From: an uncultured Acidimicrobiia bacterium
GTDB lineage: Bacteria; Actinomycetota; Acidimicrobiia; IMCC26256; CAWATG01
NCBI GenBank assembly: GCA_963785035.1
Contig: CAWATG010000015.1
Coordinates: forward strand, 175,282-239,281
Length of the DNA: 64,000 bases
Reading direction: 5' to 3'
Shown here: piece after piece, positions 16,768 through 57,398 of the stretch
Position numbering within the stretch: position 1 is the stretch's first letter
Layout of the letters: every line of letters begins with the position of its first letter
Position numbers and translations under genes: made by a program
The notes under the pieces: generated by a model
What the model was told of the DNA's origin: nothing
Seen by the model: only the letters and a program-made list of their open reading frames with translations
The model's database searches: none

Positions 16768-16792
16768 GGGCAATCGTCTGTTTCGTCGGCGG

Positions 16793-29620: not shown

Positions 29621-29719
29621 GGGCCGACCATACACAGAGCAACCGGTCCTTTTGCAGGCAGGTCGCATCCGAGCGCAAATGCGGAGGCTTCGGCGGAGGT
29701 GCGCGAGTACCTTGGGACC

Positions 29720-38616: not shown

Positions 38617-40419
38617 GTGAACCCTGTTGATGACGAATCGGCGCTGCCGACGCGGCAAGGCCGGCGATGGTGGCGGCGACGATGGGGATGGCTCGTCGGC
38701 GTCGTCGTGCTTGTGGTCTGGGCGTCGGTGGCCGGGCTGATGATGTTGAACGCACGTCGTTCGGCGGATCAAGGCATCGTTCGCCTCGAGGCCTTCGAGC
38801 GGGAGATGACCGCAGCGAAGTTGATCCGTGGTGAGGGATTGGCCTCATTGCGAAAGGCAGAAGCTGACTTTTCCCGTGCGCGAGCGGACATCGAATCACC
38901 ATTGCTCTGGCCCTTGAAGGTTGTGCCGATCATTGGCCGACAGCTGCGCAGCATCGACGCGCTCATCAGCTCGGCCGACACCGTCGTGAGCGCGGGTACA
39001 CAAGCGGTGGCCGATGCACGACGGGAGATCGATGGCAAGCAATCGTCGGGTGCGGGAAGGGTCCTGATCGCCAAACGACTCAACGGCATTGTCCAGCGAA
39101 CCAATAGACGCTTGAGCACGGTGGCGTTGGGGCCGTCGAAGGCGCTCGTGGGGCCGCTTGCCAGTGCGCGTGATCGCTTTGCGGAGAAGCTGGACAAGGT
39201 ACGCGAGGCGCTCGCGGAGACTGGTGAGGCGTCGCGCGGGATGACGGCGTTTCTCGGCGGACCGACTCGGTATCTCGTGATCGCTGCGAACAATGCCGAG
39301 ATGCGTGCCGGTGCGGGCATGTTCCTCAGTGTGGGGGAGTTGGTGGTGTCGGACGGCACCCTCCAGATCGACGAGATGAGGACGGTCACGGACCAACAAT
39401 TGCCGTCGGGCGCTGTCACGATTCGCGACGCGGATCTCCAGGCGCGCTGGGGGTGGATTGCACCGAACCAGGAGTGGCGCAACCTGGCGGCGTCACCCCG
39501 CTTTGCTGCCTCGGCAGAGTTGGCCGTCGAGATGTGGAAGGCGCGCACGGGTCGGGATGTCACGGGCGTACTCGTATTGGATCCAATCGCCCTTCGTGCG
39601 GTGCTCGAGGCCACTGGCCCGGTTGAGGTAGAGGGTGAGCAGATCAGCGCTGAGACGGTTGTCGACGAGATCCTGCATCGTCAGTACTTGGATCTTCCCC
39701 CGGGTTTTGGCGATGACCAGACCGCCCGCCGGGAACGCTTGAGCGAGATCGCCTCGGCGGCGATGCATGGCATTGATGGGAAAGCTTGGGATGTGTCCGT
39801 CATGGTCGAGCAGCTGCAGAGCGCGGCAAAGGGCCGCCATGTTCTCGCGTGGTCGAGCGATCCGGCTCAGCAGGCGGCATGGACCGCTGCCGGAATCGAC
39901 GGGGCACTGCAATCCCATTCGCTGATGGCATCGCTGCAGAGCCAGGGCGGCAACAAGTTGGATCAGTTCCTCGAGCTGAATGGGGTGGTCGAGAGCGCCC
40001 CGGCGGCCAAGGGCGGTCGGGCAGTGACGCTCACCCTGACCATTGAGAACCATGTCCCGATGGGCGAGCCGCGGTATATCTCCGGTCCCACCTTTCAGCT
40101 TCCGGAAGGGGTGTACGCAGGGATCGTGGCCGTGAATGTCCCGGGTGCAGCCTCGGATCTGCGTTTCGAGGGTTCGCCGCGTCTGGTGGCGGCGGGTTCC
40201 GACGGTCCCACGACGGTGATTGCCACTCGGGTCCTGGTGGCTCGAGGTCAAAAGGTCACGGTGGTCGTGACGTTCGTGCTGCCGCGTGGCGTGGATGCAG
40301 TGCGGATCGAGTCGTCGGCTCGGGTGCCGACGATCACCTGGAAGGCCGGCGCTCGGGTGTGGATTGATGACCACGCCCGCACGGTCCGCCTGAAGGAGGT
40401 GCGCCAAGAAGCGAAGTAG
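38617..40419 (+). CDS. DUF4012 domain membrane-anchored protein
   Basis: It has an N-terminal RRWWRRRWGW + TM anchor, then YLVIAANNAEMRAGAGMFLSVGEL...APNQEWRN...VLVLDPIAL blocks typical of DUF4012. The start is uncertain: GTG at 38617 or the listed ATG at 38512, which overlaps the divergent gene. Confidence 0.7.
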   Translation: MNPVDDESALPTRQGRRWWRRRWGWLVGVVVLVVWASVAGLMMLNARRSADQGIVRLEAFEREMTAAKLIRGEGLASLRKAEADFSRARADIESPLLWPLKVVPIIGRQLRSIDALISSADTVVSAGTQAVADARREIDGKQSSGAGRVLIAKRLNGIVQRTNRRLSTVALGPSKALVGPLASARDRFAEKLDKVREALAETGEASRGMTAFLGGPTRYLVIAANNAEMRAGAGMFLSVGELVVSDGTLQIDEMRTVTDQQLPSGAVTIRDADLQARWGWIAPNQEWRNLAASPRFAASAELAVEMWKARTGRDVTGVLVLDPIALRAVLEATGPVEVEGEQISAETVVDEILHRQYLDLPPGFGDDQTARRERLSEIASAAMHGIDGKAWDVSVMVEQLQSAAKGRHVLAWSSDPAQQAAWTAAGIDGALQSHSLMASLQSQGGNKLDQFLELNGVVESAPAAKGGRAVTLTLTIENHVPMGEPRYISGPTFQLPEGVYAGIVAVNVPGAASDLRFEGSPRLVAAGSDGPTTVIATRVLVARGQKVTVVVTFVLPRGVDAVRIESSARVPTITWKAGARVWIDDHARTVRLKEVRQEAK

Positions 40420-40472
40420 ATGGTACTATGACCCCAAAAGCCGCACAAGTCTGTTACGGGGTGAAAGACCTA

Positions 40473-40501
40473 TTGCACGTAGCGTGACTATTCGCTACTA
40501 T
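40473..40501 (+). promoter_or_regulatory. candidate sigma-70-type promoter for the LPXTG gene
   Basis: TTGCAC (40473-40478), a 17-nt spacer and TACTAT (40496-40501) lie in a low-GC intergenic region. GGAGG at 40525-40529 sits 8 nt before the GTG at 40538. Confidence 0.3.
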
Positions 40502-40537
40502 TAGTGTCAATTCATCCCTGGTGCGGAGGCAGATGTA

Positions 40538-40879
40538 GTGGCGTTCTCTCGACGATCAATCCGATTTGCGGCTGCCGGTGCGTTCGCGGCTTCGCTCGCG
40601 CTCCCTCTCGGTGCCGGGATAGCGAGCGCGCAGGAAGTCTGTCCTACGGCATCGCCTTCTGACATCGCGTGCTCGCCGCCTCCGGTGGAGGTTCCCGAGG
40701 TCGGCAACTTCCCGGCGCAAGGCGAAGTCGCGGTCAAGGGTGTCAGTGCGTCGGCGTCTTCGGGCTTGCCGGTTACCGGCGGAGACGTCGCCGGCATGGC
40801 AACGCTCGGCGCTGTTGCGCTCGGCGCAGGTGGAATCATGGTTCGCGTTGGTCGGCGGCGCCGCGCCATCGAGGGATAG
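40538..40879 (+). CDS. very small LPXTG cell-wall-anchored protein
   Basis: It has a signal peptide (..LALPLGAGIASAQE). The mature segment is ~55 aa with CPTASPSDIAC. LPVTG is followed by a hydrophobic stretch and an RRRR tail, giving a complete sortase sorting signal. Confidence 0.75.
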   Translation: MAFSRRSIRFAAAGAFAASLALPLGAGIASAQEVCPTASPSDIACSPPPVEVPEVGNFPAQGEVAVKGVSASASSGLPVTGGDVAGMATLGAVALGAGGIMVRVGRRRRAIEG

Positions 40880-41306
40880 GAGCGTTCGGAGAAGGAGCCG
40901 GCACCCACATAAGGGACACTCCACGCGACGTGACACGCGTGGAACGTGCGCCCAGGTGCGTGAGTATGACGCGTCACAGCGGGCGTTAGGTGAAAGAAAC
41001 CCGCAAGCGACAACGGGGAGCGTATTGGAACCTCACTTCGGAGGTAATGGTCACCAATGCACTCAACGGATTTTTTCGCAGATCGCCTATCACTCCGGTC
41101 GCTGGCCGTCTACAATCCGCCGCAAGAGAACTCATTTGGACATGAGTGCACGCGGAGGTTGTATTCGTCGTATCTCATCGGCGTGGCCGGAATGGATGTC
41201 GGACCTGGCAAGGACGTTTTCGGCACGGTTGATTCCGGTGTGATCAGACGTGTACGGGTGCCATGGAGGTGCTCGCTCCGCGATTCGCAATACACGACCT
41301 CGACGT

Positions 41307-42825
41307 ATGCAAGCGGAGAGTTTGGCGGACTGCGTGAGTAGCTCCCAGTCGTTTCATGAGCACAACGTGCCCGTGCCCGAGGTCGAACCGCTGCCACTTT
41401 TTCATGAAGCCGTGAATGCAGCGCCTGCGAGCGGCTTTGTTCTCCGTCGGATTCTCGTTCTTGGCGACGTTGTCGGTGTCGCATTGGCCTGGACGGTGGC
41501 TCTGTTCGTCACGGGTCGCAACCCGAGTCCTTTTGCGGGCCGGCCCGTTGCGCTTGCAGCGGCGGTTGCGGTCATGACAGTCGCCGGTCTTGCCGGTATT
41601 GCGTCACAACGTCTGTACCTCGCTCGGGTGTGTGGCGTCCGCGCCGTGGAGCTTGAGCGCCTCGGGCGCGCTTCGGTGCTCTCGGGCATGCTCGCCTACC
41701 TGGTTGCGCAGGTCTTGGACCTCACCGTCACCGGGGTCCGTGCCGCTCTCGGCGGTCTGTTGATGTTCGTGCTCCTGGCGATGTTCCGTGGGGGATACGA
41801 CGGTTGGCTCAAGTCAGCGCGTGCCAATGGACGGTTCACCCGTCCGATCGTCATCATCGGCGGGAACCAGGAGGGCTTCGAGCTCTACCGTCTGCTCTCC
41901 ACACATCCTGAACTCGGCTTTCGCGTCAGCGGGATCGTCGGTTGCGGAGATCACCGCAGGATGTGGGCGACCGACGTGCCCTGGCTCGGCGAGATCGCCG
42001 ATGCTGCCCGAGCGGTCAAGGCGACAGGATCGAACGGCGCAGTGATCGCTGCGAGCGCTGTTTCCTCCGAGCAGCTCAATGCGCTCACCCGCCAACTGCT
42101 CGCCAACGGCGTGCATGTCCATCTCTCGAGCGGCCTGAAGGGCATCGCGCAAAGTCGTCTGCGGTCGTTGCCACTGGCCTATGAGCCGCTGTTCTACCTC
42201 GAGCCGATTGCATTGACCGTGTGGCAGCTACGCGCGAAGCGCGCCATCGACATCGTCCTGGCCGGCGTTGCGCTCGTCATCGCGGCGCCGATCATGATCC
42301 TTGCAGCGATTGCGATCAAGGTGCAGGACCGCGGGCCGGTGTTTTTCCGACAGGAGCGCGTCGGGAAGGACGGTCGGAAGTTTCATGTGCGTCAAACTGC
42401 GCACGATGGTGCCGGACGCGGAAAGGATGCTCGTCGACATCACGAACGACAATGAGCGCAGCGACGGTCCGCTTTTCAAGCTGGCAGTAGACCCACGTCG
42501 AACGAAGGTCGGTCGGTTCCTGGAGACAACGAGCCTCGATGAGCTCCCACAGCTTTTCAATGTGCTGCGCGGTGAGATGAGCATGGTCGGCCCCCGTCCC
42601 GCGTTGCCTTCAGAGGTCGCCGCGTTCGACGAGGAATTGCACGCTCGCCACAGGGTTCCCCCAGGTATCACGGGGCTCTGGCAGGTCGAAGCACGTGACA
42701 ACCCTTCGTTTCTGGCCTACCGCCGCCTTGATCTCTTCTACGTCGAGAACTGGTCCGTCTCGCTCGACCTGGCAATTCTGTTGTCGACGGGCAAGGCGAT
42801 TGCCATGCGAATCGTGCATCGCTGA
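41307..42825 (+). pseudogene. polyprenyl-phosphate hexose-1-phosphate transferase (WbaP/bacterial sugar transferase family; priming enzyme), frameshifted
   Basis: The N-terminal TM bundle, the Rossmann-like middle (IVIIGGNQEG) and [37 protein letters not shown] are in one frame. [10 protein letters not shown]...[39 protein letters not shown] are in the next. The shift is at about 42387-42393. The start is uncertain. Confidence 0.8.
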
Positions 42826-42960
42826 TCTGCGGGATTGCCCGCTCCTACAGACTGCGCGTTCGTGCACGTTGCGCATTCGGGGAACTCGGGCGGTCCTGCG
42901 AACGACGTAACGTGGTGGCGCACGCGCGTACCGATTGCCCATGGTGGGCCTGATCCTTGG

Positions 42961-43935
42961 ATGCAGCATGTCGAGTTCAATATGGTGAGTTCCGCTTTTG
43001 CGGGCCGGCACGTCGTCGTGACGGGTGGCGCCGGGTTCATCGGCAGTCATGTCGTCGAACGATTGGTTGCTGAGCAGGCCGTCGTGACGGTGCTCGACAA
43101 TGGCACCACCAGCGATTCCGAGAACCTTCGGTCTGTCGCGGGCGACTACGACTTTGTCGATGGCGACGTGCTCGATACCGAGGTGCTCGGACCCGTCATT
43201 GCGAAGGCTGATGCGATCTTCCACTTCGCGGCGAGTGCCTATTTACCGCCGTCGGTCGACGACCCGGAGATGGACCTGATGCAGAATTGCGTCGCGGTCC
43301 TGCGAATTCTTGAAGCAGCGCGTCGTTCGGGGCGCAGCCCGCGTGTCGTCATCATGTCGTCCGCAGCTGTCTATGGCGATCCGGTCCACCTGCCGGTTGC
43401 CGAGGACGATCCTCTTGTGCCGATCAGCCCCTACGGCGTGTCGAAACTTGCCGCTGAGCGCTACGCCGAGGTCTACGCAACCCTGCACGGCTTGCCGACG
43501 GCATCGCTTCGCGTGTTCTCGGCATACGGGCCACGGCAAAGGAAGCAGATCGTCTACGACTTCTTCGTCAAGCTCACCACCGATCCAACGAGTATGGAGA
43601 TAATCGGTGACGGCGGACAACGCCGCGACATGGTTTTCGTCGACGATATTGCCAGTGCTGCGATGGTGGTTGCGGAGCGTGGGCCAATGCATGGCGAGGT
43701 GTACAACGTGGCGTCGGGGGTCGACGTGTCGACGCTGGAGCTCGCTCGAGAACTCGCGCGCGTGTATGGCAAGGATCCCGAATTCACCTTCACGGGAGCA
43801 GTTCGCCTTGGTGATGCGCAACGATGGAGCGCGGACACCACACGTCTACGTGCGCTGAACTGGACGCCGGGAACGGATCTCTCGAGTGGTCTGGCACGTA
43901 CGGCGGAGTGGTTCGCATCCACATACCAGGGTTGA
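42961..43935 (+). CDS. NAD-dependent nucleotide-sugar epimerase/dehydratase (SDR)
   Basis: VVVTGGAGFIGSHVV, SSAAVYG and the YGVSKLAAE (YxxxK) catalytic motif are present. The start is at 42961 or 42982. Confidence 0.8.
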   Translation: MQHVEFNMVSSAFAGRHVVVTGGAGFIGSHVVERLVAEQAVVTVLDNGTTSDSENLRSVAGDYDFVDGDVLDTEVLGPVIAKADAIFHFAASAYLPPSVDDPEMDLMQNCVAVLRILEAARRSGRSPRVVIMSSAAVYGDPVHLPVAEDDPLVPISPYGVSKLAAERYAEVYATLHGLPTASLRVFSAYGPRQRKQIVYDFFVKLTTDPTSMEIIGDGGQRRDMVFVDDIASAAMVVAERGPMHGEVYNVASGVDVSTLELARELARVYGKDPEFTFTGAVRLGDAQRWSADTTRLRALNWTPGTDLSSGLARTAEWFASTYQG

Positions 43936-43986
43936 GCGACGGGATCTCGTGGCGCCTCATCTGGATGACTGCGCGGAAGGCTGCCC

Positions 43987-45141
43987 GTGCGCATACTGAT
44001 GGTGGTACGCAACCTCGACTTCGGTGGCGTCGAGCGCCGCGCTGCTTCTCTGGCGTGCGGTTACGCGCGCAGCGGTCACGAGGTTCTGGTGGCGTGTTTG
44101 CGCGACGAAGGAATCTGGGCTCAAGAAGTGCGCGCGTGCGGAGCTGGTTTGCAGGTGATCGAGCGCACCAACGGCGCCGACCCCCGCGGACTACTCAGCC
44201 TGGCGCGCCTTGTCGGCTCATTTGATCCCGACGTCATCGATGCGCACCAGACTCGCCCCAACATCCTGACCCCCTTGGCGTTGGACCTCAATGCCGGATT
44301 CGATCGTCTCGGATCGACTGCGCGGCGAGCTGTGCGGCGTCGAGCGCCGTATGTCGCCTCGTCGTACTTGATCGACAATTGGCGCAGCCCCGCAATCCGT
44401 GTTGCGGAGCGCTCGTCACTGCGTCGTGCCGCCCGTGTCGTGACCGACAGCGGGCGTCTTGCCCAGGACCTACGAGAGCGAGCGCGCCTTGCCGAGAGCT
44501 CCGTTGTCGTGATTCCCAATGGCGTCGCCGATGCCCGTGCTGCACGCTCGGCGCGTGCCGAGGTCGAGGCGCTTGTCGGCGGTTCGGGCCCCTTGGTTGT
44601 GCATGTCGGAAGGCTTCTTCCCTACAAGGGTCAGCGTGCGTTTCTCCGCGCCGCTGCGAGGGTCGTCGAAAACGGGCTCGAGGCGCGATTTCTTGTGGTG
44701 GGCGATGGTGACGAGGGCTATACCGCGGAGCTGCGGGATCTCGCAGCAGCGGAGCCACTGGCCGGGCGCGCGGCGGTCATCGCTTGGGAGGGCGAGATCG
44801 GATCAATCCTGCAAGTGGCCGACGTGTTTACCCTCGCGAGCACCAAGGAGTCTCTGCCGTTATCAATTATCGAGGCGATGAGCGCGGGTCTGCCGGTCAT
44901 TGCGACTGATGTCGGCGGTGTCGCCGAAGCGGTGACCGACGACGTGAATGGATACCTGTTGCCGACCACGTCCAACGGGCCGGATATCGGCGCGCTCGCC
45001 GGGGCGCTGACCCGTGTCATTGCCGACGCGGCGTTGCGGAGGCGTCTGGGTGATGTGGGACGGCAGCGCTTCGAAGTGGATTACTCCGTCTCCACGATGG
45101 TGCAGCGTGCCCTCGAAGTACTGACCGCAGCAGCGCGGTAG
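43987..45141 (+). CDS. glycosyltransferase family 4 (GT-B)
   Basis: N-terminal block: MRILMVVRNLDFGGVERRAASLACGYARSGHEV. C-terminal block: GRLLPYKG...EG..LSIIEAMSAGLPVIATDVGG..E. Confidence 0.8.
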   Translation: MRILMVVRNLDFGGVERRAASLACGYARSGHEVLVACLRDEGIWAQEVRACGAGLQVIERTNGADPRGLLSLARLVGSFDPDVIDAHQTRPNILTPLALDLNAGFDRLGSTARRAVRRRAPYVASSYLIDNWRSPAIRVAERSSLRRAARVVTDSGRLAQDLRERARLAESSVVVIPNGVADARAARSARAEVEALVGGSGPLVVHVGRLLPYKGQRAFLRAAARVVENGLEARFLVVGDGDEGYTAELRDLAAAEPLAGRAAVIAWEGEIGSILQVADVFTLASTKESLPLSIIEAMSAGLPVIATDVGGVAEAVTDDVNGYLLPTTSNGPDIGALAGALTRVIADAALRRRLGDVGRQRFEVDYSVSTMVQRALEVLTAAAR

Positions 45142-45153
45142 TACTTCGAGGGC
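45109..45153. terminator. perfect 14-bp inverted repeat between convergent genes (candidate bidirectional terminator)
   Basis: gccctcgaagtact (45109-45122) and agtacttcgagggc (45140-45153) are separated by a 17-nt loop. The structure straddles the GT4 stop codon at 45139-45141. There is no U-tract. Confidence 0.5.
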
Positions 45154-45163
45154 ACGTCAATGC

Positions 45164-45868
45164 CTACAGCGGTGGCGGCGAGGCGCTGAGCTGTGCCGGC
45201 GTCGCGGTTGTGGTGTTGAAGGCCGCCCATTCGTTCGTGACGAACTTGAACTTGCCGATGCTTGCGCCACGGTTGTTCGGCCAGTTTGCGCTCAGACTGG
45301 CCCAGTAGTCGACGCCGCTACCGGCGAGGAGGTGCTGTGACCAGAAAGCGCGATCGTCGGGACCATTGGGGTTGTCGAGGATGAGCCGCGCCTGGAACGT
45401 GCCGTAGACCGCGGCGACGTCGTTGGCAGGGATCGTCCCGCGGGGAGCCCAGAAGTGCCATGCATTACGGCCCGCAGAGAAGTCAAGCTTGCCGCTCACG
45501 CCTTCGGACTCGGTCCGCACCGACATCGGATTCGAGACGTTCCCCCCGAAGTCCTCCCGGTATGCGTCTCCCTTCTCCGCTCCCGAGGTGACCAGGATCC
45601 ATTTTCCAGTGCTCCTGGAGAGCAACCAACACTGCACGGCACGCACCTGCACGCGGGTGTTTCCGGTTCCCGGGTTCAACCCCTGGTTTTGCGGAAGCCC
45701 GTCGGCGAAGAGCACGCCCCATGTGACGGCGGACTGCATGCCGGCGTTGTCATTACCCACCTGGATCTCAGGACCGGGTTTCCACGAGTAACCATCAGGA
45801 AGGGGAATGACACCCTCGTGGAATCCACGCTGGTCCGATGCGATCAGGGCAACTGAGTTGATCCCGCC
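45164..45868 (-). CDS. unknown-function domain protein P1 (paralogue of 47058-47987); 5' end unresolved
   Basis: About 60% identical by eye to the C-terminal ~235 aa of P2. The first in-frame start is the GTG at 45760. Clear in-frame homology (GGINSVALIASDQRGFHEGVIPLPDGYSWKPGPEIQ) continues 36 codons further upstream and overlaps the stop of the preceding ORF. Confidence 0.5.
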   Translation of the reverse strand, partial: GGINSVALIASDQRGFHEGVIPLPDGYSWKPGPEIQVGNDNAGMQSAVTWGVLFADGLPQNQGLNPGTGNTRVQVRAVQCWLLSRSTGKWILVTSGAEKGDAYREDFGGNVSNPMSVRTESEGVSGKLDFSAGRNAWHFWAPRGTIPANDVAAVYGTFQARLILDNPNGPDDRAFWSQHLLAGSGVDYWASLSANWPNNRGASIGKFKFVTNEWAAFNTTTATPAQLSASPPPL

Positions 45869-46887
45869 CGACGGTGGCTGTGGTGCGTGTCCGGTTTGGG
45901 CGCACCTGGCTTGCGGGGCCTGATCGGATGCACGCGGCCTCGGCGACTCACGACGTAGTAGCCGCGACGCTGAGCAGTGGTAGCCAGTGCCACGGCGTCG
46001 GAATCCAACATCCCGGTCGCAGCACCGTGGAACTCCGCGTCTCCGTAGGAGTAGACGCCACCATTTCGGGTCAAGAGGTAGTAGCCCATACCCGAATCGG
46101 TTGACGCGATCGAAGTCACGGCGTCGAGGTGGGGGATCACACCCACGGCGCTGCCGAGGAACTTGGCGTCGCCGAACGAGAACACGCCCCCGTCGGAGGC
46201 AACGAGCCAGTAACCCTTACCGCTTGGTGTCGCGGCCATCGCGACGATTGGGCGGTTGAGCGGCATTCCGCCGGTCGAACCGCGGAAAATGGCATCGCCG
46301 TAGGAGAAGACGCCACCGTCGCGAGCCACCTGCCAGTAGCCCTTACCGCTCGGCGTCGATGCCATCCCGACGACTGGCTGGTTGAGACGAATGTCGCCGG
46401 CGGAACCGTGAAAGGCTGCGTCTCCATAGGAGAACACGCCGCCATCGCCGGCAGTCATCCAGTAGCCGCGACCGCCAGGTGTCGTAGCCGAGTCCACGAT
46501 GGGGCTGGCGAGGCGCAGGGTCGAGGCTGCGCCGAAGAATTGTGCGGAGCCGTAGGAGTAGATGGCGCCGTCAGCTGCGATCTCCCAGTAGCCCGACCCG
46601 TCGGGGGTGGAGACCATGGAGACGATGTTCTGGACGGTCGGTTGGTTCTCGGCGGATCCGAAGTAGCCGACCTCATTGGAAGGTGTCGAGGGTTCGGCAG
46701 TGGCGGTCGAGACCGCACGAGCCAATGTCGTCGCTCTTGCAGGAGATGTGGCGCTTGCGGGGGCGTCGCCCAGTGAGAGTCCGAGGGATACGGAACCGGT
46801 GGCGACGATGGTGGCGAGAAGAGCCCCACCCCAGCGCTGTATATGTCGTTTGGTGTTTTTGGGCGCGTTCGACCAAGGCTGCAACAT
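45844..46887 (-). CDS. secreted protein built from ~6 tandem ~41-aa repeats (beta-propeller-like), unknown family
   Basis: It has a signal peptide (..GALLATIVATGSVSLGLSLGDAPASA). The repeats have the consensus GYW.VA.DGGVFSFGDA.F.GS......LN.P(I/V)VGMA.TP.GK. GGGAGGA lies 6 nt before the ATG at 46887. The C-terminal ~30 aa look non-native. Confidence 0.65.
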   Translation of the reverse strand: MLQPWSNAPKNTKRHIQRWGGALLATIVATGSVSLGLSLGDAPASATSPARATTLARAVSTATAEPSTPSNEVGYFGSAENQPTVQNIVSMVSTPDGSGYWEIAADGAIYSYGSAQFFGAASTLRLASPIVDSATTPGGRGYWMTAGDGGVFSYGDAAFHGSAGDIRLNQPVVGMASTPSGKGYWQVARDGGVFSYGDAIFRGSTGGMPLNRPIVAMAATPSGKGYWLVASDGGVFSFGDAKFLGSAVGVIPHLDAVTSIASTDSGMGYYLLTRNGGVYSYGDAEFHGAATGMLDSDAVALATTAQRRGYYVVSRRGRVHPIRPRKPGAPKPDTHHSHRRAGSTQLP

Positions 46888-47057
46888 GTGTTGTCCTCCC
46901 TAAGTGACCCGAGAAGAACAGCTGAACTGTTCTTGGAGATCCTCTGTCTCCGAGGCGTGCACTCAAGAGAGGTCATCGACCCTGGGCGCCGAAAACTTGA
47001 ACGGCTAAACGGGATGAGGCGCGAGGTATCGGTAAAAAAGGACGGTGACGCTTGGCT

Positions 47058-47987
47058 CTAAGGAGCTTCAGCGAGCGGGGGCGGCGTTGCCCGCAGCTGC
47101 TCGGCAGTTGCCGTCGTCGTGTTGAAGGCCCGCCATTGCGACGTCACGAACTTGAAGCGGCCGATGCTGGCTCCGCGGTTGGTTGGCCACGGCGAGCCGA
47201 GTGTCTGCCAGTAGTCGATACCGGCGCCGGCGAGAAGGCGTGACGACCAGAAACTTCGGTCATCGGGTCCGTTCGGGTCGTCGAGGATCAAACGGGCCTG
47301 GAACGTCCCGAACATGGCCGCGATGTCGGTTGGATCAAGCGTCCCGCGGGGGTTCCAGAAATGCCATGCGTTGCGCCCAGCACTGAAATCGAGCTTGGCG
47401 CTGATGCCTTCGGGTTCCGAACGAACGTCGATCGGTCCTGCACTGTTGTGTCCGAAGTTCTCGGGATAGGCGCCGCCGGACTCCTCCTTGTCGGCGATCA
47501 AGTGCCAGGACCCGGTCGCCTTCGAGAGCAGCCACGTTTGGATCCCGCGCACCTGGACGCGTGTGTTCCCAGTCTCTGGACGCAAGGCGGCGTTGGTCCG
47601 GCGCCCGTCGACGAAGAGCACGCCCCAGGTAACGGCAGCGCGCATTGAGGCTGCGTTGTTGCCGACCTGAATCACCGGCACGTGTTTCCAGTCGACAAGT
47701 GGATCCAAAGGCAACACGCCGTTGTGGGCACGCTGTTGGTCCGAGACGATCAGGTCGACCGAGTTCAGCGGACCAGGTTTCGATGTTGTTTCCGGTTGTT
47801 GCACAGCGGGTCTGGACGTCGCGGGGTTGCGGTGTTGACCGGTCGTTTCGGGGCTCGATGACGGATTCGCAAAAATTCCGATGTCGAATGCGAACATGAC
47901 GAGCAACGTTGCACCGCTCAGAGTGGCAAGCGCCTTCAGGAGCGTCCTCCTCCGGCGGCGACGCCGGCGCCGTGAACGAGTGCGCAT
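47058..47987 (-). CDS. membrane-anchored unknown-function domain protein P2
   Basis: The ATG at 47987 lies 2 nt after the upstream GT stop. The N-terminus is [17 protein letters not shown] plus one TM, followed by a Pro/Ser/Thr linker. The ~235-aa domain has blocks GNTRVQVRGIQTW, DFSAGRNAWHFW, FQARLILDDPNGPDDR, NRGASIGRFKFVT and FNTTTAT. Confidence 0.6.
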   Translation of the reverse strand: MRTRSRRRRRRRRRTLLKALATLSGATLLVMFAFDIGIFANPSSSPETTGQHRNPATSRPAVQQPETTSKPGPLNSVDLIVSDQQRAHNGVLPLDPLVDWKHVPVIQVGNNAASMRAAVTWGVLFVDGRRTNAALRPETGNTRVQVRGIQTWLLSKATGSWHLIADKEESGGAYPENFGHNSAGPIDVRSEPEGISAKLDFSAGRNAWHFWNPRGTLDPTDIAAMFGTFQARLILDDPNGPDDRSFWSSRLLAGAGIDYWQTLGSPWPTNRGASIGRFKFVTSQWRAFNTTTATAEQLRATPPPLAEAP

Positions 47988-47989
47988 GT

Positions 47990-49097
47990 TCAGGCGGTGG
48001 CCGTGGGGTTCGCGAGCCTGGCGCACAGTGCCTCGTATCGATCGGTCACGGTGTTCCAGTCGTACTCCGACTCAGCGCGAGCCTGCAATTTCGCCCCACG
48101 CTCTGCAGCGCCATCGGGGTCGGCATCGACAGCGTCGATGGCCTGTGCGTACTGCTCGGGCGTCGAGAAAAAGCGCCCATCGTCGCCGAGCACCTCACGA
48201 TTGAAGACGACGTCGAATGCGATCGCGGGGACTGCTGCGCCCATTGCGCGGAGCAGCGCAGGATTCGTGCCGCCGACGGAATGCCCGTGGGTGTAGCTGC
48301 GGGCGTGCGCGTACAGGGCGTCGAGCAGATCCAGGTCGTAGACGCTGCCGACGAGCCGGACCCGGCGGTCGCGTGCCGCTAGTTCTTCGATGTGCTCTTT
48401 GTAGGCGGCGCCGTACTTGGCGTCGCCGACGACGACGAGCGGAATCTCCGAGGCGCTGAGACGGTATCCAGCGATGATTTCGGCGAGGTGGTTCTCAGGT
48501 TCGAGACGGCTGACGACGAGGTGATAGCGACCGGGTTCGATCCCAAAATCGCACACCGGCTGGGCGCTCACGTTGCGAAGGATTGGAGCCCCATACGCGA
48601 TGAACGTGCTCTCGGCGCCGAAGCTCGAACGGTAGTAGTCGCCGATTCCCCTCGAGTCGGCGATGATCTCGTCGGCGAGTCGTACACCGAGGCGTTCGGA
48701 GAGCATGTACCAGCGCTTGCCCAACGGCCCCCATTTGGACCGTTTCCACTCGAGTCCGTCGACATTGACTGCGACGGGAATTCGGCGTAGGCGCAGGAGC
48801 GGCAACATCACGGCGTTCGCCACATTGCACATGATGGCGACGTCAACTCGATGGAACAGCAGATGCAGACACGACAGTCCGGTATGGGAGAGGGTTTCTG
48901 CAGCACGAAGCGGCAACGCAGGAAGGTTCACCAACGTCATGCCCCGGTACTCGTGGAGTTTCTGACCTGGGGTTGCGGCAGTAGACGACGACTTCGTGAC
49001 CACGCGTGCTGAGGCGGGTCCCGACTTCTTCTGCCAGTGTTTCAAAGCCGCCGTATCGCGCAGGGACCCCGCGCGTGCCGATGATTGCTATGCGCAT
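47990..49097 (-). pseudogene. glycosyltransferase with DUF1972-type N-terminus (GT4 family), frameshifted
   Basis: MRIAIIGTRGVPARYGGFETLAEEVGTRLSTRGHEVVVYCRNP is in one frame. GQKLHEYRGMTLVNLP...NVDGLEWKRSKWG...HGHSVGGTNPALLRAMG is in the next. The shift is at the GGGG run 48969-48972. Confidence 0.8.
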
Positions 49098-49225
49098 CGC
49101 TGCACTAGCCGGGCTGACGGACGGTGTATCTGTCACCTACGTTGGACTTCTTTGTCAGTCGCGCAGGCTGACGCGGACCCTCGTCGTATGGCGCAACCAT
49201 CGCGGTGAGCGCGTTGCGGCGTCGA

Positions 49226-50062
49226 TCAGCCACGATAATGGCGACCCACGCCAAGTGCGACGATGGCGACAGCTGTTGCCATAACGCTGCGCGCGACCTT
49301 GCTCATTTTGGAGAGCGCCCTCACGTCGGTGACCGATACCAGATCCGGCGACCGCGCAGCGAGGAGCGCGGCTTCGGCCCTGGCGACACGAGCCCGGGCG
49401 TCGCTCAGCTCTTGTTGCGCGTTGGAGATTTGCAGCTTGAGGCCCGCCGCCTTGTTCTGTCCTTCGGTGAGTTGTGCGAGCACCTTTGCCTGTTCGGGCG
49501 TGCGTTGATCGCCGTTGTAGGCAGCGAATGCCGCGGCTCGCGCCGCGTCGATGTCAGTCCAGTCGATCGCTGTTTGGAAAGCGTTCCAGTCTTGGTTGAT
49601 CGCGTCGAGACTGGCCTGCGTTGTGCGGAGGGCGATGGCTGCGCGGTCCCGCTGGCGGGATGCGACTGCGGCGAGGCCCTCGGTAGCGTACGCGGTGACG
49701 ATTTGGCGGGCGTTCTGCTCGGAGGTTCCGGTATACGTCATTGTGACCGGCGAACCACCCTGGTCTCCGCCGTACGTCGTCACATCGCCGATCGAACCTT
49801 CGTCGACCTTTGCCCTCTTCGCCACAGCACGGGTGACAGATGGGAGGTCCAAGGCGGAGCGAAAATCTGCCACTAATGGATCAATATTGAAGGAACTGTC
49901 CCCGGGATTGAGCGCCTGACCGACGAAGACAACTGCCGTCGCCTCATACGTGGTGGGTCGGCTCAGTGCGAACAACCCGGCGGCAGCGGCCGCCAAACTG
50001 CCGGCAACAGCCAGAGCTATCAACCTCCGAGGCGTCAGATTCAAGAAGCTGGCGATTTCCAT
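49226..50062 (-). CDS. Wzz-like polysaccharide co-polymerase (chain-length determinant), no kinase domain
   Basis: It has N- and C-terminal TM helices flanking a ~200-aa Ala/Gln-rich predicted coiled-coil ectodomain. It sits next to Wzy. Confidence 0.6.
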   Translation of the reverse strand: MEIASFLNLTPRRLIALAVAGSLAAAAAGLFALSRPTTYEATAVVFVGQALNPGDSSFNIDPLVADFRSALDLPSVTRAVAKRAKVDEGSIGDVTTYGGDQGGSPVTMTYTGTSEQNARQIVTAYATEGLAAVASRQRDRAAIALRTTQASLDAINQDWNAFQTAIDWTDIDAARAAAFAAYNGDQRTPEQAKVLAQLTEGQNKAAGLKLQISNAQQELSDARARVARAEAALLAARSPDLVSVTDVRALSKMSKVARSVMATAVAIVALGVGRHYRG

Positions 50063-50214
50063 AACACGCGAGCCGATCTCTCCGCACGAGGTTGTCAGGC
50101 CGACTTTATCAGTCGGGAGTCGGACATTTTATCCGCTTTGCGTTGAACTGTTGTCACGGTGGCACCTAGTTAGTCTGGTCAACCTACGGCTTTTTTGAGT
50201 ATTACCCTGAGTGA

Positions 50215-51678
50215 ATGCGTACGACGGTCGCCGCGAACAGTCCCAACGCGGGCATAAATCATCCGCCCGGGGTTGCCTCGGTCTCGACTCGGGTGCTCGT
50301 CGTCTTCGGGGTGTGCGGGGCGGTCGCGGTTTCCATCGCCATCGGGGTGCTGGTTGGGCTTGGCGGCCCGAGCCAGCGCAACCTCTTCGTCGGCGCCACG
50401 GCCCTCATCGCAGGAATCGTTGCAGCGACGGGCGTGATGACCCGGTTTTGGCCAACGTTGTTGTTGTTGTTTTCGCTTCGGCCGGTGTTCGATGCCATGA
50501 AGATCGGTGCGTTGGGTTCGGGTTCCCTGGATCCATCAACCGTGGTTGGGGTCATCTTTCTCGCCAGCGCGTTGTTGTGGTTGCTGGCCAGGCACCGGAC
50601 TGGGACATTCGTCGGGGTTTCCCGCGTGGCCAAGGCACTGCTGGTCTTTGCGTTTGCTTGTGGTGTGAGCGCATTGGGGGCTGACCACGTCTTCGAGAGC
50701 CTTGCAACGGCTTCAAAGGTACTTTCGGCCGCCGTAATGATCGTGGTCCTGGAACAGTTGTATACAGATCGCCCCGAACGGATCAATGCACTGCTTATAG
50801 CGTTCTTTGCGTCGTTGGGATTTCCTGCAATATTCGCCGTCGTCGAGCTTTTCGGCGGGCCGAAGACCGGTGACTACACCGAAGTTGGGCGTATTACGGG
50901 CACCTTCGTGCACCCGAATGCCTTCGCGAGCTACCTCACCATCATCGTGCTCTTGGCCGTTGCACTGGCGCCACATCTCGAAGGACGGGCAAGAGTCGCC
51001 ACGATCGCTTGCGGAGGGGTCGCAAGCTTCCTCCTCTTGAACACCTATGCCCGGGGTCCGTGGCTTGGGCTACTCGTCGGGCTCGTCATCATCGGCATTG
51101 TGCAGGATCGCAGGATCCTTGGAATCTTGGCCGTCGCGGTAGCGGTGATCCTCATCGCCGTGCCGTCGGTCACGACACGGCTCGGCGAACTCGGCCAAAC
51201 AGAGGCGGTCGGCAACGGTGACGCGAACTCGCTGGCGTGGCGTCTCGGGTACTGGGGGAGAGTGCTGCCGCTGGGCGAGGAGAATCCTGTTACCGGGATC
51301 GGTATCCTCATGGTGCAGAAGTCGACCCCCGAGGGGTTGCCTCCCCACAATGGATTTGTGCAGGCGTACGTCGAGACGGGGATTTTCGGGTTGGCGGCGC
51401 TTGGCGTGATGATGGCGCTCATGGGTCTCGATCTGCGGCGCGCGCTCCAACGCGCCGGCAGTGGGTTCGATCGCGCCGTGGTGCTCGGGGCACTTGCGAT
51501 CAGCGCATCTCTTGCGGTGCAGCTGCTCTCGGAGAACCTGCTGACGCAGACCCTGAACTATTGGTACCTGTTCGTTCCGACGGCGTACGCGTTGGCCGTC
51601 GTCGCAAGGGGCGAGATCGGATCTCCCCAGCCTTCGAAAGTCAGACTTTCTTCGGCGATTCCCCGGCGCCGTCTTTGA
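50215..51678 (+). CDS. O-antigen ligase/polymerase family (Wzy-like) membrane protein
   Basis: It has about 10-12 TM helices. The Wzy_C-type loop block reads RGPWLGLLVG...NSLAWRLGYW...PHNGFVQAYVETGIFG. Confidence 0.75.
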   Translation: MRTTVAANSPNAGINHPPGVASVSTRVLVVFGVCGAVAVSIAIGVLVGLGGPSQRNLFVGATALIAGIVAATGVMTRFWPTLLLLFSLRPVFDAMKIGALGSGSLDPSTVVGVIFLASALLWLLARHRTGTFVGVSRVAKALLVFAFACGVSALGADHVFESLATASKVLSAAVMIVVLEQLYTDRPERINALLIAFFASLGFPAIFAVVELFGGPKTGDYTEVGRITGTFVHPNAFASYLTIIVLLAVALAPHLEGRARVATIACGGVASFLLLNTYARGPWLGLLVGLVIIGIVQDRRILGILAVAVAVILIAVPSVTTRLGELGQTEAVGNGDANSLAWRLGYWGRVLPLGEENPVTGIGILMVQKSTPEGLPPHNGFVQAYVETGIFGLAALGVMMALMGLDLRRALQRAGSGFDRAVVLGALAISASLAVQLLSENLLTQTLNYWYLFVPTAYALAVVARGEIGSPQPSKVRLSSAIPRRRL

Positions 51679-52789
51679 CCGCCTGATAGAAGTCGACCAG
51701 GCTTTGAGCAGTGCGTGCCGAGCCGAAGTGTGACGAGGCATAAGCCTTACCGGCATCGGAGATACGCGCCAACAGCTCGGTGTTCGAGACGGCCGAACGC
51801 AACACTGCCGCTGCGGCAGACGGGTCGTCGGTCAGCGTCAATCCCAAGCCCCTCTCCCGAAAGAGGTCGCTGGTCCGTAGCGACTCCGAGATTGCCAAGG
51901 GAATTCCCAGCCCCATTGCCTCGGCCATCGTGAGCGAGAATCCCTCGAACCGCGAGAACTGCACGCACAGCGTTGCGTTGAGCATGACTTCGTACTTTTC
52001 TGTGCCGTATACCGGCTCATGGAAGGTCACATTCGACGTTGCCCGCGCACGAAGGTCGTTCATCGCCTGGGAGTGCTCGGTACTTGTCGTGCCGTAGAGA
52101 TGGAACTCCAGCTCGGGAGCGTGCGCTGCCGCCTCGACCAGTCGGTCGAGGCCCTTCTGGAACGGCTCGAAGCGTCCGAGATAGACGAGCCTGTTTCGCT
52201 CCGGACCTAACGTCCACGATGGCGTGCCCTCTGGCGGAGGCTCGACCGGGACGGGCATCTCGATGGCCGTCCTCAGGTTCTGGCCCACGACCTGTTCGCA
52301 ATCCTCGCGTTCGCCCGGGAGGAGCGCGATGCCGCTCGCTTTCGTGACCAGTGGACCCTCGATGAAGCGCACGTACTGGCGCCGCAACGTTGGGCTGAAT
52401 GCCATGAGCGCAATTGCGAGAGTGCCGTGCGGGGAGTAGATATACGGCACGCCGCACCTGCGAAGCAGGAACCCGAGGAGCGCATGATTGGGCTTCCATC
52501 CGCCGTGGAGATGGACGATGTCGGGGCGCTGGTTGCGAAGAAGTCGTAGGTAGGCGCGCGGCGCGAGTCCTTTGTCGCTCCGGCGTGCCTCGGTGACGAT
52601 GAACCCATGGGTCGATGCGTAGGCGCGTGCGTCCTGACTGACGGGCGAGCGCATGAACACGGTGACGTGATGACCGATCAGTGCCTGCTCGCGTGCGATC
52701 CACCACACGAAACCGGAGAGTCCGTCTACGCCGTCAGGTCCGGTGTTCACGTCGACGTGCCAGATGCGCATCGCGGTGCGTGGTGTCAT
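51641..52789 (-). CDS. glycosyltransferase family 4
   Basis: It has the C-terminal GT-B block LGRFEPFQKGLD...SRFEGFSLTMAEAMGLGIPLAISE. The start overlaps the wzx stop as ATGA. Confidence 0.8.
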   Translation of the reverse strand: MTPRTAMRIWHVDVNTGPDGVDGLSGFVWWIAREQALIGHHVTVFMRSPVSQDARAYASTHGFIVTEARRSDKGLAPRAYLRLLRNQRPDIVHLHGGWKPNHALLGFLLRRCGVPYIYSPHGTLAIALMAFSPTLRRQYVRFIEGPLVTKASGIALLPGEREDCEQVVGQNLRTAIEMPVPVEPPPEGTPSWTLGPERNRLVYLGRFEPFQKGLDRLVEAAAHAPELEFHLYGTTSTEHSQAMNDLRARATSNVTFHEPVYGTEKYEVMLNATLCVQFSRFEGFSLTMAEAMGLGIPLAISESLRTSDLFRERGLGLTLTDDPSAAAAVLRSAVSNTELLARISDAGKAYASSHFGSARTAQSLVDFYQAVKDGAGESPKKV

Positions 52790-54120
52790 GGCGACACACC
52801 TGTCGTCGTGGCCGGCGGTGCGCCGGGAGAGGTCGTCCCGCCGTCGCTGCCGCTGCCGTTACGCCGCGCTGTCCAATCTGACAGTGTTGTTGCTTCCAGC
52901 CAGGAATACGCAAGGAAGACGAATCCGCTCACGGTTGTGATGATTGCAGCGCTCTTGATGCCGTAGCGATCGACGAATGCCACGAGTCCGATCACGGTGG
53001 TGCCGAGGGCACAGACCAACGCTCGGGAGACGCCGCCCGGCCGTCCGTCTGCGAGCAGCTTCTGGGTGATGACCGAGCCCATATCGAACGCGATCTGGCC
53101 GGGCAGCAGCAGCCAAAGCAGCACAATCGCGCCACGGAAGTCATCGCTGAACAGCAGGGGCAAGACCCACGGCGCCGAGGCGCCGACGATGCACGCGACG
53201 CTTGCCGAGAGCGCGAAGGTCAAACGAAGTGAGCGGCGCAGTGCATGGCGGCCCGCAGTCGGATCGAGCCCATGGCGAATTTTCGGGAAGAGCGCGAGCG
53301 CAATCGAATTGGCCACGGGGCCGCTCACCCCTGCGGCCGTGACCGCGACTGCATAGCGTCCGAGCTCTTCCGACGATACATAGGCAACGAGGAGGAACTG
53401 ATCGAGTCGTGAGGTCAACACGCCGGCAAGGCTTCCGAAACCAACTCGGTATCCGTAGTTGGCCTGGATTCGAAACGTCTCCCGGCTGAAGTCCGTTCCC
53501 GGCCAACCACGCGTCACCGAGAAGACAACGAGGTACCACACGACGTACGCGCCGAACTGTGCTGCGAGGGCACTGGTGAGGTCCAACCTGCCGGCGATTG
53601 CGAGCACGATCACGACCGCGGCGTTCGCCACGAACGGGAAAATCTGCAGAACGTTGAAGACCACCAGACGCGGTCGTGCGCGTTGCAGTTCGATCGCGGT
53701 CTGCGCGGGCATGAAGATCACACCGACGACGAGGAAGGCGCGGAACCATTGCACGGTCAGGGACGCATGGTCCGAGAGATAGTTGGGCACGAACCACCAA
53801 GCCACGAGCGTGAGTGAACCGCCGATGACTGCAGCCCATGCCCATGCCGACATCACCAGCTCTCGGTGGCTGCGTTGATGGCTAAGGTAGATGGCGGCTT
53901 GTGGGAAGCCGAAGAGCAAGGCGTAGCCGAGGACCTGGGGAGGCACTGTCGCTGCCGCATAGTCGCCGCGTCCTTCGGCGCCGAGTGCGTACGCGAGCAA
54001 TGGACCGGTGACGACGGCGAGGCCGTAACCGAAAAGGCCACTGACCGCCGTGAACGCGGTGTCGAACTTCGGGCTGGCGATGAGTCGACGCATGTGACCC
54101 TCGGAGCGGAAATACTTCAC
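52786..54120 (-). CDS. wzx: Wzx-type oligosaccharide flippase (MOP/polysaccharide biosynthesis protein family)
   Basis: A 444-aa protein with about 12-14 TM helices, typical of PST-family flippases. Its context is a Wzy-dependent locus. Confidence 0.8.
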   Translation of the reverse strand: MKYFRSEGHMRRLIASPKFDTAFTAVSGLFGYGLAVVTGPLLAYALGAEGRGDYAAATVPPQVLGYALLFGFPQAAIYLSHQRSHRELVMSAWAWAAVIGGSLTLVAWWFVPNYLSDHASLTVQWFRAFLVVGVIFMPAQTAIELQRARPRLVVFNVLQIFPFVANAAVVIVLAIAGRLDLTSALAAQFGAYVVWYLVVFSVTRGWPGTDFSRETFRIQANYGYRVGFGSLAGVLTSRLDQFLLVAYVSSEELGRYAVAVTAAGVSGPVANSIALALFPKIRHGLDPTAGRHALRRSLRLTFALSASVACIVGASAPWVLPLLFSDDFRGAIVLLWLLLPGQIAFDMGSVITQKLLADGRPGGVSRALVCALGTTVIGLVAFVDRYGIKSAAIITTVSGFVFLAYSWLEATTLSDWTARRNGSGSDGGTTSPGAPPATTTGVSP

Positions 54121-54292
54121 TGGGTTGTGTCCTGCGTCGATGGTTGTGCGTCTGTTGCAGTTGAACGGACGCGAAACTGCTGTCGGTGGCGGAATTTAGA
54201 GGGTTAACACGTACAATTAGGCCAATTCACTCACACCGAGTGGGCGTTACGTGGAACGAGACATTACTCGGGGGAACGACGGAGGCCGGCCG

Positions 54293-55072: not shown

Positions 55073-55074
55073 CA

Positions 55075-57380: not shown

Positions 57381-57398
57381 GCGAGCGCCCGGGTACCG

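What the first reader, a model, noticed from the sequence alone, without database searches (positions are those of the whole stretch)
45760..45960. P1 homology runs upstream of its first start codon and into the 3' end of the propeller ORF
The first ATG/GTG/TTG in the P1 frame is the GTG at 45760. The 36 codons upstream in that frame (GGINSVALIASDQRGFHEGVIPLPDGYSWKPGPEIQ) align position for position with P2 (GPLNSVDLIVSDQQRAHNGVLPLDPLVDWKHVPVIQ). That in-frame stretch overlaps the propeller stop codon at 45844-45846. The last ~30 aa of the propeller ORF (..RGRVHPIRPRKPGAPKPDTHHSHRRAGSTQLP) look like out-of-frame sequence. As written, P1 has no signal peptide or anchor of its own.

I see three possibilities:
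- The propeller and P1 are one fusion protein, broken here by a 1-nt indel.
- P1 has lost its own 5' end.
- P1 uses a non-canonical start.
Basis: seen in the sequence. Interest (0 to 1): 0.55.

Follow-up and report, generated by a model that had tools for sequence, protein, structure and literature searches.

The report
One gene split by a missing base
The "propeller" gene and the start-less "P1" gene are two halves of one secreted fusion protein, split in this sequence by one missing base that is most likely an assembly error, so there is no unusual gene overlap or start codon here.

Summary
P1's reading frame has no ATG/GTG/TTG before the GTG at 45760. The 36 codons upstream of it are still true P-domain sequence (64% identity to P2 over 234 aa, no gaps), and they run across the propeller stop codon.

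A contig from a related strain (L032, 92-94% nucleotide identity) carries one continuous ORF: propeller, then the linker ...KPGAPKPDTQPQPPSGG, then INSL... and the P domain. Compared with L032, the window lacks a single G between 45884 and 45883.

Substitutions between the two strains fall on third codon positions of the propeller frame before that point and of the P1 frame after it (8 synonymous against 1 non-synonymous change between the indel and the GTG). Only the last 13 aa of the propeller ORF (HHSHRRAGSTQLP) are out of frame, not about 30.

The same 64-kb window holds at least 8 other single-base frameshifts, including 3 in a class-II DAHP synthase gene. The deletion is therefore most likely a consensus error in the assembly. 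A genuine recent mutation is the main rival. Programmed frameshifting and a non-canonical start are not supported.

The repaired gene (45164-46887, minus strand, 574 aa) encodes signal peptide, six propeller repeats, a proline-rich linker and the P domain. The P domain is an uncatalogued beta-rich fold also seen in predicted phage tail proteins.

The parts
45164..46887 (-). Whole repaired gene: 1724 nt plus 1 restored base gives 574 codons and a stop. It encodes signal peptide, six propeller repeats, linker and P domain.
   Evidence: The continuous orthologous ORF in L032. tblastn of that ORF hits the window in two frames that meet at 45883. Repaired translation.
46750..46887 (-). N-terminal signal peptide or anchor (MLQPWSNAPKNTKRHIQRWGGALLATIVATGSVSLGLSLGDAPASA).
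   Evidence: Read from the translation: a basic N-terminus, a hydrophobic stretch and an AxA motif. This is inference; no signal-peptide predictor was run.
45931..46638 (-). Six propeller repeats of the type ...GYW.VA.DGGVF.FGDA.F.GS.... The last one is a truncated half-blade ending ...GYYVVSRRGRV.
   Evidence: Translation. More than 7,995 homologues with the same repeat, mostly from Acidimicrobiales. Homologues with a C-terminal enzyme domain end the propeller at the same kind of truncated blade.
45886..45930 (-). Linker, first part, in the propeller frame: HPIRPRKPGAPKPDT.
   Evidence: Identical amino-acid sequence in L032.
45883..45884 (.). Site of the 1-nt deletion. On the minus strand the window reads ACGCA^CCACAG and L032 reads ACGCAGCCGCAG. 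The missing base is the third base of a CAG (Gln) codon.
   Evidence: DNA alignment A2, megablast gap list, local context and indel phase.
45844..45885 (-). False C-terminal tail HHSHRRAGSTQLP plus the stop codon of the propeller ORF. This is out-of-frame reading of the linker and the start of the P domain.
   Evidence: The differences from L032 in this stretch are synonymous only in the P1 frame.
45863..45883 (-). Linker, second part, in the P1 frame: PQPPSGG.
   Evidence: Same residues in L032.
45761..45862 (-). First 34 residues of the P domain (INSVALIASDQRGFHEGVIPLPDGYSWKPGPEIQ), which the GTG-started P1 ORF leaves out.
   Evidence: Aligned to P2 and to distant homologues from residue 1. 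Modelled with pLDDT above 90. From the indel to the GTG there are 8 synonymous and 1 non-synonymous change against L032.
45164..45760 (-). P1 as called (GTG start, 198 aa). This is the C-terminal 198 residues of the P domain.
   Evidence: The same 198-aa protein is in public collections as P0001.
47058..48026 (-). P2, the paralogue used for comparison: membrane anchor, linker and P domain.
   Evidence: Orthologues P0003 and P0004.

Best explanation
The propeller ORF (45844-46887) and P1 (45164-45760) are one gene. It encodes a secreted 574-aa protein: signal peptide, six-repeat beta-propeller, a short Pro-rich linker, and a C-terminal P domain of about 235 aa.

In this sequence one G is missing from the linker, between 45884 and 45883. 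Because of this, the propeller frame runs on for 13 meaningless codons to a false stop. The P domain ends up in the -1 frame with no start codon until an internal GTG.

Shown: the single-gene structure and the position of the missing base.

Inferred: the missing base is most likely a consensus (indel) error of the assembly rather than biology, because the same 64 kb contains at least eight other single-base frameshifts, some in housekeeping genes.

Also inferred: the intact protein probably works like the many other propeller-effector fusions in this lineage, with the propeller as a targeting or binding module and the P domain acting on or binding a glycan. The gene sits inside a Wzx/Wzy-type polysaccharide biosynthesis cluster.
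For: 1. Orthologue. L032 is a Logan contig from run SRR22387887, 92.4% identical to window 38851-46289. It has one uninterrupted ORF reading ...GYYVVTRRGRVHPIRPRKPGAPKPDTQPQPPSGGINSLALIASDQ... through to ...PPPL*.
2. Indel. The only indel between the window and L032 inside this gene (apart from one at the end of the alignment, 46285) is a 1-nt gap in the window at 45883. tblastn places L032 residues 1-135 in frame -2 and residues 136-374 in frame -1, meeting at 45883.
3. Codon-position test against L032. Upstream of the indel there are 16 synonymous and 7 non-synonymous codon changes in the propeller frame. From the indel to the GTG there are 8 and 1, with 9 of 10 nucleotide differences at the third position of the P1 frame. 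Downstream of the GTG there are 22 and 5.
4. Domain boundary. Distant P-domain homologues all begin the domain at xINSVxxIIxDM, directly after a signal peptide, a linker or another domain. The AlphaFold model (pLDDT 97.1) includes the first 36 residues at high confidence.
5. Architecture. Propeller homologues are routinely fused to C-terminal enzyme domains after a truncated last blade, for example P0029 (amidase), P0033 (deacetylase) and P0025 (DUF4232).
6. Error signature. Other genes in the window are split by single-base shifts:
- Bac_transf priming transferase at about 42378.
- DUF1972 glycosyltransferase at 48967.
- A gene of unknown function, 318 aa in the orthologues, at 49248.
For these three, the orthologues in several independent contigs are intact.
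- GDPD at about 7.8 kb.
- Phosphoglycerate-mutase-like gene at about 30.4 kb.
- Class-II DAHP synthase, in four pieces between 15.4 and 16.8 kb.
These three come from split Pfam profile matches.
No premature stop codon was noticed in the genes inspected.
7. Frameshifts of this kind are described as an error class of long-read assemblies (abstracts of PMC12007338 and PMC9262707, listed).
Against: - Only one orthologous contig (L032) spans the junction. Three others (L033, L034, L036) stop about 33 nt short of it.
- No reads and no record of the sequencing platform were available, so error and real mutation cannot be told apart directly.
- The deletion is not in a homopolymer. The context is GCA^CC, and the only run of 4 or more bases nearby is CCCC at 45918. 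It is therefore not the most typical nanopore error context.
- Four of the frameshifts cluster in the polysaccharide locus. That would also fit real decay of that locus.
Confidence: 0.75

Rival explanations
1. The deletion is a genuine, recent mutation in this strain. The fusion gene is a fresh pseudogene: the cell secretes a propeller with a 13-aa nonsense tail, and the P domain is not made, or is made only as a cytoplasmic fragment from the internal GTG.
For: - The sequence as given has the deletion.
- Four frameshifts fall in one polysaccharide cluster. Loss of the priming transferase would relax selection on the rest of that cluster.
- The site is not a homopolymer.
Against: - Frameshifts also hit genes outside the cluster: three in one DAHP synthase gene, one in GDPD and one in a phosphoglycerate-mutase-like gene.
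- All the lesions found are single-base indels. No nonsense codons or larger deletions were noticed.
- Protein identity to intact orthologues stays at 86-97% on both sides of each break.
- Downstream of the break, substitutions are still strongly synonymous, 22 against 5. This test is weak if the mutation is very recent.
Confidence: 0.2
2. The split is functional recoding: a programmed -1 ribosomal frameshift or transcriptional slippage in the overlap produces the fusion protein from the sequence as written.
For: - The P1 frame is the -1 frame relative to the propeller frame.
- The two frames overlap over a long open stretch.
Against: - There is no X_XXY_YYZ slippery heptamer in the propeller frame between 45960 and 45840. 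The only XXXYYYZ motif (CCCAAAC at 45900) is in the wrong phase.
- There is no long homopolymer that could support transcriptional slippage.
- The orthologue encodes the fusion in a single frame, so the arrangement is not conserved.
Confidence: 0.02
3. Propeller and P1 are separate genes, and P1 starts at a non-canonical codon (ATC 45862, CTG 45847, ATC 45844 or ATT 45808). On this reading L032 would carry an insertion error or a secondary fusion.
For: Near-cognate codons do exist at the start of the domain.
Against: - No Shine-Dalgarno-like sequence sits at a workable distance from any of them.
- The product would lack a signal peptide, whereas every homologue inspected has a signal peptide or anchor, or an upstream domain, except fragments cut by a contig end.
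- The third-position substitution pattern switches frame exactly at the indel. That is expected for one continuous coding sequence and not for an insertion error in L032.
Confidence: 0.03

Closest known systems
Genes fragmented by single-base indel errors in draft or long-read (meta)genome assemblies
   Same: One gene appears as two adjacent same-strand ORFs in different frames. The downstream piece has no proper start. Homology to a single protein switches frame at one point. Many such breaks occur in the same contig, including in housekeeping genes. The phenomenon is described in PMC12007338 and PMC9262707 (abstracts).
   Different: The platform and reads of this assembly are unknown to me. 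This deletion is not in a homopolymer, which is the classic nanopore error context.
Propeller-effector fusion proteins of Acidimicrobiales: GYW...DGGVF.FGDA.F.GS repeats fused to amidase_3, polysaccharide deacetylase, GH43, SpoIID, CHAP, YkuD, M23 and other domains
   Same: The repaired protein has the same repeat type and the same layout as P0029, P0033 and P0025: signal peptide, propeller, truncated last blade, linker, C-terminal domain.
   Different: The C-terminal partner here is the uncatalogued P domain. Apart from the L032 orthologue, I found no other propeller-P fusion among the P-domain loci and proteins whose sequences I read from the three searches. The 150 best representatives were listed but mostly not read. 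The repeat has no Pfam model; the only hit is a sub-threshold one to RCC1_2.
Programmed -1 ribosomal frameshifting (dnaX and IS-element type)
   Same: The downstream frame is -1 relative to the upstream frame, and the two frames overlap.
   Different: There is no slippery heptamer in phase, and the orthologue is in a single frame.

Membership tests
Single gene split by a frameshifting indel | An orthologue has one continuous ORF across the junction | tested here: met
   L032 ORF 6318-7442, 374 aa, cut only by the contig end.
Single gene split by a frameshifting indel | Homology to one protein switches reading frame at a single point that coincides with an indel not divisible by 3 | tested here: met
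   tblastn places residues 1-135 in frame -2 and residues 136-374 in frame -1, meeting at 45883. There is a 1-nt gap at that position.
Single gene split by a frameshifting indel | Synonymous, third-position substitutions follow the upstream frame before the indel and the downstream frame after it | tested here: met
   Synonymous against non-synonymous changes are 16/7 upstream, 8/1 from the indel to the GTG, and 22/5 downstream. In the middle segment 9 of 10 differences are at the third position.
Single gene split by a frameshifting indel | The downstream piece lacks its own start codon, ribosome-binding site and export signal | tested here: met
   No ATG, GTG or TTG before 45760. No Shine-Dalgarno-like sequence. 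The signal peptide is only on the propeller part.
Assembly (consensus) indel error | Many other single-base frameshifts in conserved genes of the same contig | tested here: met
   At least 8 more: GDPD, DAHP synthase (3), phosphoglycerate-mutase-like, Bac_transf, DUF1972 glycosyltransferase, and a gene of unknown function that is 318 aa in the orthologues.
Assembly (consensus) indel error | Reads or polishing data contradict the consensus at the site | not testable with these tools
   No reads and no assembly metadata were available.
Assembly (consensus) indel error | The indel lies in a homopolymer or another known error-prone context | tested here: not met
   The context is GCA^CCAC. The only run of 4 or more bases nearby is CCCC at 45918.
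Programmed -1 ribosomal frameshift | Slippery heptamer X_XXY_YYZ in the zero frame within the overlap | tested here: not met
   None in phase between 45960 and 45840.
Programmed -1 ribosomal frameshift | The two-frame arrangement is conserved in orthologues | tested here: not met
   L032 is in a single frame.
Programmed -1 ribosomal frameshift | Stimulatory RNA structure downstream of the slip site | not tested
   There was no candidate slip site from which to anchor the test.
Separate overlapping genes with a non-canonical start | A usable start codon with a ribosome-binding site at the start of the conserved domain | tested here: not met
   Only ATC, CTG and ATT codons are present, with no Shine-Dalgarno-like sequence at a workable spacing.
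Acidimicrobiales propeller-effector fusions | Tandem GYW...DGG[VI]F.FGDA.F.GS repeats followed, after a truncated last blade and a linker, by a different C-terminal domain | tested here: met
   Repeats. The same layout is seen in P0025, P0029, P0033 and P0038 and in L032.

The most novel reading that the evidence does not exclude
The deletion is real in this strain, and the cell still makes some full-length propeller-P protein by low-level, non-canonical -1 slippage, or makes a cytoplasmic P domain from a near-cognate start. On this reading the single-base change would act as an expression switch for a surface protein encoded in a polysaccharide cluster.
Probability: 0.03. Interest if true: 0.4.

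Novelty: not a real feature. Interest (0 to 1): 0.12.

Why it matters
The main value is as a correction. The 347-aa propeller protein and the 198-aa P1 protein (P1 is deposited in public collections in that form) are fragments of one 574-aa protein. The contig carries many similar frameshifts, so its gene calls should not be trusted without polishing.

A smaller positive result is that the repaired gene adds a new C-terminal partner, the P domain, to the large family of Acidimicrobiales propeller fusions. The P domain is widespread (1,019 cluster representatives) and has no Pfam or NCBIfam model and no PDB neighbour, but it resembles predicted domains of phage tail proteins. It could be worth characterising as a glycan-directed module.

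Tried and rejected
- GC3 frame analysis across the junction was too noisy to place the frame switch. The genome is only 63% GC and GC3 is about 75-80%.
- Pfam and NCBIfam gave no significant hit for P1, P2 or the propeller.
- Exact look-ups of P1 and P2 found no contig on record. The exact 347-aa propeller sequence is not in the protein collection.
- The contigs carrying P2 orthologues (L019-L022) all break 594 nt into the propeller gene, at window 46292, so they could not show the junction.
- I reached the junction from the other side, through orthologues of the downstream GT4 gene. L031, L033, L034, L035 and L036 stop short of it. Only L032 crosses it.
- Scans of GTDB genomes and JGI metagenomes for P-domain loci found 23 distant relatives, none fused to a propeller.
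- The first AlphaFold run, with 8 sequences, was poor (pLDDT 62.6) and its PDB search was meaningless. A 65-sequence alignment gave pLDDT 97.1, but still no PDB match by fold or by sequence profile.
- A slippery-site and Shine-Dalgarno scan found nothing usable.
- The ends of L033, L034 and L036 were checked for a variant at the indel site. They are identical to L032 up to where they stop and carry no information about the site.

Full report
**What is in the sequence.** All the genes concerned are on the minus strand. The propeller ORF runs from 46887 to 45844 (347 aa). It has a signal-peptide-like N-terminus and six repeats of the type GYW.VA.DGGVF.FGDA.F.GS. P1 is called from the GTG at 45760 to 45164 (198 aa). 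P1's frame is open from a stop at 46217-46219 and contains no ATG, GTG or TTG before 45760. It is the -1 frame relative to the propeller frame. The paralogue P2 (48026-47058, 322 aa) has a membrane anchor, a linker and the same domain.

**Check of the observation.** BLASTP of the extended P1 frame against P2 gives 64% identity over 234 aa with no gaps (E=6e-112). The alignment begins at GGINSV, 36 codons upstream of the GTG. This is not peculiar to the P1/P2 pair. Fifteen distant loci in GTDB genomes and eight in JGI metagenomes encode the same domain. In most of them it begins at xINSVxxIIxDM, directly after a signal peptide, a low-complexity linker or another domain. With a 65-sequence alignment, AlphaFold models the 234-residue domain at pLDDT 97.1 and pTM 0.92, and the first 40 residues score 92-98.

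**What it is.** The P family is rare among close relatives. The word-indexed search found only 7 proteins, all with an N-terminal anchor and linker once gene calls are corrected. The propeller repeat family is very large in Acidimicrobiales: 7,995 of the 8,000 candidates scored reach E<=1e-10. It is routinely fused to enzyme domains on either side. When the enzyme is C-terminal, the propeller ends in a truncated last blade followed by a linker, as in P0025, P0029, P0033 and P0038. The window's propeller ends in the same way (...GYYVVSRRGRV).

Related strains at 92-95% nucleotide identity exist in Logan assemblies. The contigs that carry the P2 orthologue all break inside the propeller repeats. 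I approached from the other side, through the downstream GT4 gene, and found one contig that crosses the junction, L032. Its ORF is continuous...GYYVVTRRGRVHPIRPRKPGAPKPDTQPQPPSGGINSLALIASDQRGFHEG... and on to the end of the P domain.

The DNA alignment shows a single 1-nt gap in the window. On the minus strand the window reads ACGCA^CCACAG and L032 reads ACGCAGCCGCAG, which puts the gap between 45884 and 45883. tblastn of the L032 protein hits the window in frame -2 (residues 1-135) and frame -1 (residues 136-374), and the two hits meet at 45883.

**Which version is derived.** Over this gene the window and L032 differ at 69 of 1125 aligned positions. Upstream of the indel, the changes are mostly synonymous in the propeller frame (16 against 7). 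Between the indel and the GTG they are 8 synonymous against 1 non-synonymous in the P1 frame, with 9 of 10 differences at third positions. Downstream they are 22 against 5. Selection has therefore acted on one continuous frame that changes phase exactly at the indel. The window's deletion is the derived or erroneous state. Only the last 13 aa of the propeller ORF (HHSHRRAGSTQLP) are out of frame.

**Error or mutation.** Against intact orthologues in several independent contigs, the window has further uncompensated single-base indels that split genes:
- the Bac_transf priming transferase, at about 42378;
- a DUF1972 glycosyltransferase, at 48967;
- a gene of unknown function, 318 aa in the orthologues, at 49248.

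Outside the region covered by relatives, split Pfam profile matches show more frameshifts:
- a GDPD gene, with profile positions 1-154 and 135-243 in two overlapping frames near 7.8 kb;
- a phosphoglycerate-mutase-like gene near 30.4 kb;
- a class-II DAHP synthase gene, in four pieces between 15.4 and 16.8 kb.

Other frames I scanned matched their Pfam profiles end to end, or nearly so. That makes at least nine single-base frameshifts in 64 kb, some in housekeeping genes. No nonsense codons were noticed, and protein identity stays high on both sides of each break. This is the signature of consensus indel errors. Such errors are described for long-read assemblies (abstracts of PMC12007338 and PMC9262707). 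I put the artefact at about 0.75 and a genuine recent mutation at about 0.2. The one-gene conclusion holds either way (about 0.95).

**Rejected mechanisms.**
- Programmed -1 frameshifting: there is no slippery heptamer in phase in the overlap and no long homopolymer. The orthologue needs no recoding.
- Non-canonical start: only ATC, CTG and ATT codons are present, with no ribosome-binding site. The product would lack the export signal that every homologue has.

**What the repaired protein probably does (inference).** The gene lies in a polysaccharide biosynthesis cluster. The cluster includes a Wzy-type polymerase, a flippase, several glycosyltransferases, a priming transferase and NDP-sugar enzymes. 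It sits next to its paralogue P2.

The P domain has 1,019 cluster representatives at E<=0.001 and no Pfam or NCBIfam model. It has no PDB relative by sequence or by fold. In other proteins it is joined to NPCBM, PA14, GDSL, GH5 and dockerin modules. Its model matches predicted phage tail proteins (BFVD A0A8S5TWL1, E=5e-13, TM 0.67). A glycan-binding or glycan-processing role at the cell surface is the most reasonable guess, with the propeller as the targeting module. None of this was tested.

**Verdict.** The feature is a frameshifted single gene, most likely an assembly artefact, so interest is low.

Noticed in passing
window 7369-8209 (+); 15402-16800 (-); 29582-30884 (+): Three more genes, all outside the polysaccharide cluster, are split by frameshifts. 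GDPD matches Pfam profile positions 1-154 and 135-243 in two overlapping frames. Class-II DAHP synthase is in four pieces (three shifts). A PhosphMutase/Metalloenzyme gene is in two frames.
   Followed up: partly
window 41250-42825 (+); 47990-49136 (-); 49226-50062 (-): Three genes are split or truncated by 1-nt insertions at about 42378, 48967 and 49248: the Bac_transf priming transferase, a DUF1972 glycosyltransferase, and a gene of unknown function that is 318 aa in the orthologues. The orthologues are intact in 3-5 independent Logan contigs. A further 1-nt insertion at 54204 is intergenic.
   Followed up: yes
window 45167-45868 (-) and 47061-47780 (-); loci L004-L018, L023-L030: The P domain is about 235 aa, with the motifs INSV..II.DM, NTRVQ.R, ARLILD.P.GPDDR and NPPP. 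It is a widespread family (1,019 representatives) with no Pfam or NCBIfam model and no PDB neighbour, even with a pLDDT-97 model. It resembles predicted phage tail proteins. It is found joined to NPCBM, PA14, GDSL, GH5 and dockerin domains, and in tandem copies.
   Followed up: partly
window 45931-46638 (-): The GYW...DGGVF.FGDA.F.GS propeller repeat reaches E<=1e-10 in 7,995 of the 8,000 candidates scored, mostly from Acidimicrobiales. It is fused to many cell-wall and glycan enzymes, including GH43, SpoIID, amidase_3, CHAP, YkuD, M23, GH25 and a deacetylase. It has no Pfam model; the only hit is a sub-threshold one to RCC1_2. Some JGI entries label these proteins 'ribosomal protein L24E', which looks spurious.
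   Followed up: partly
L001 5215-6690 (+): The public gene call for P0002 (229 aa, start at MVAADQ) is probably too short. The frame opens at an ATG 786 nt upstream and encodes a hydrophobic N-terminus and a long Thr/Pro-rich linker before the P domain, 491 aa in all. The minus-strand ORF called opposite the linker (5130-5882) reads as low-complexity antisense.
   Followed up: partly
L019-L022 ends (window 46292); L033, L034, L036 ends (window about 45850): Independent Logan contigs from different runs all end at the same two positions. One is inside the propeller repeats. The other is about 33 nt before the indel site, at a short GCGAGCGAG repeat. These are probably assembly-graph breaks at repeats or strain variants, and they are why only one contig crosses the junction.
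   Followed up: partly
window 38851-57954: This stretch is a Wzx/Wzy-type polysaccharide biosynthesis cluster. It holds a priming Bac_transf, epimerases, GT4 glycosyltransferases, a Wzy_C polymerase, a Polysacc_synt flippase, an NTP transferase and a methyltransferase. Gene order matches the Logan contigs, which are 91-96% identical at the nucleotide level. Two P-domain proteins are embedded in it.
   Followed up: partly
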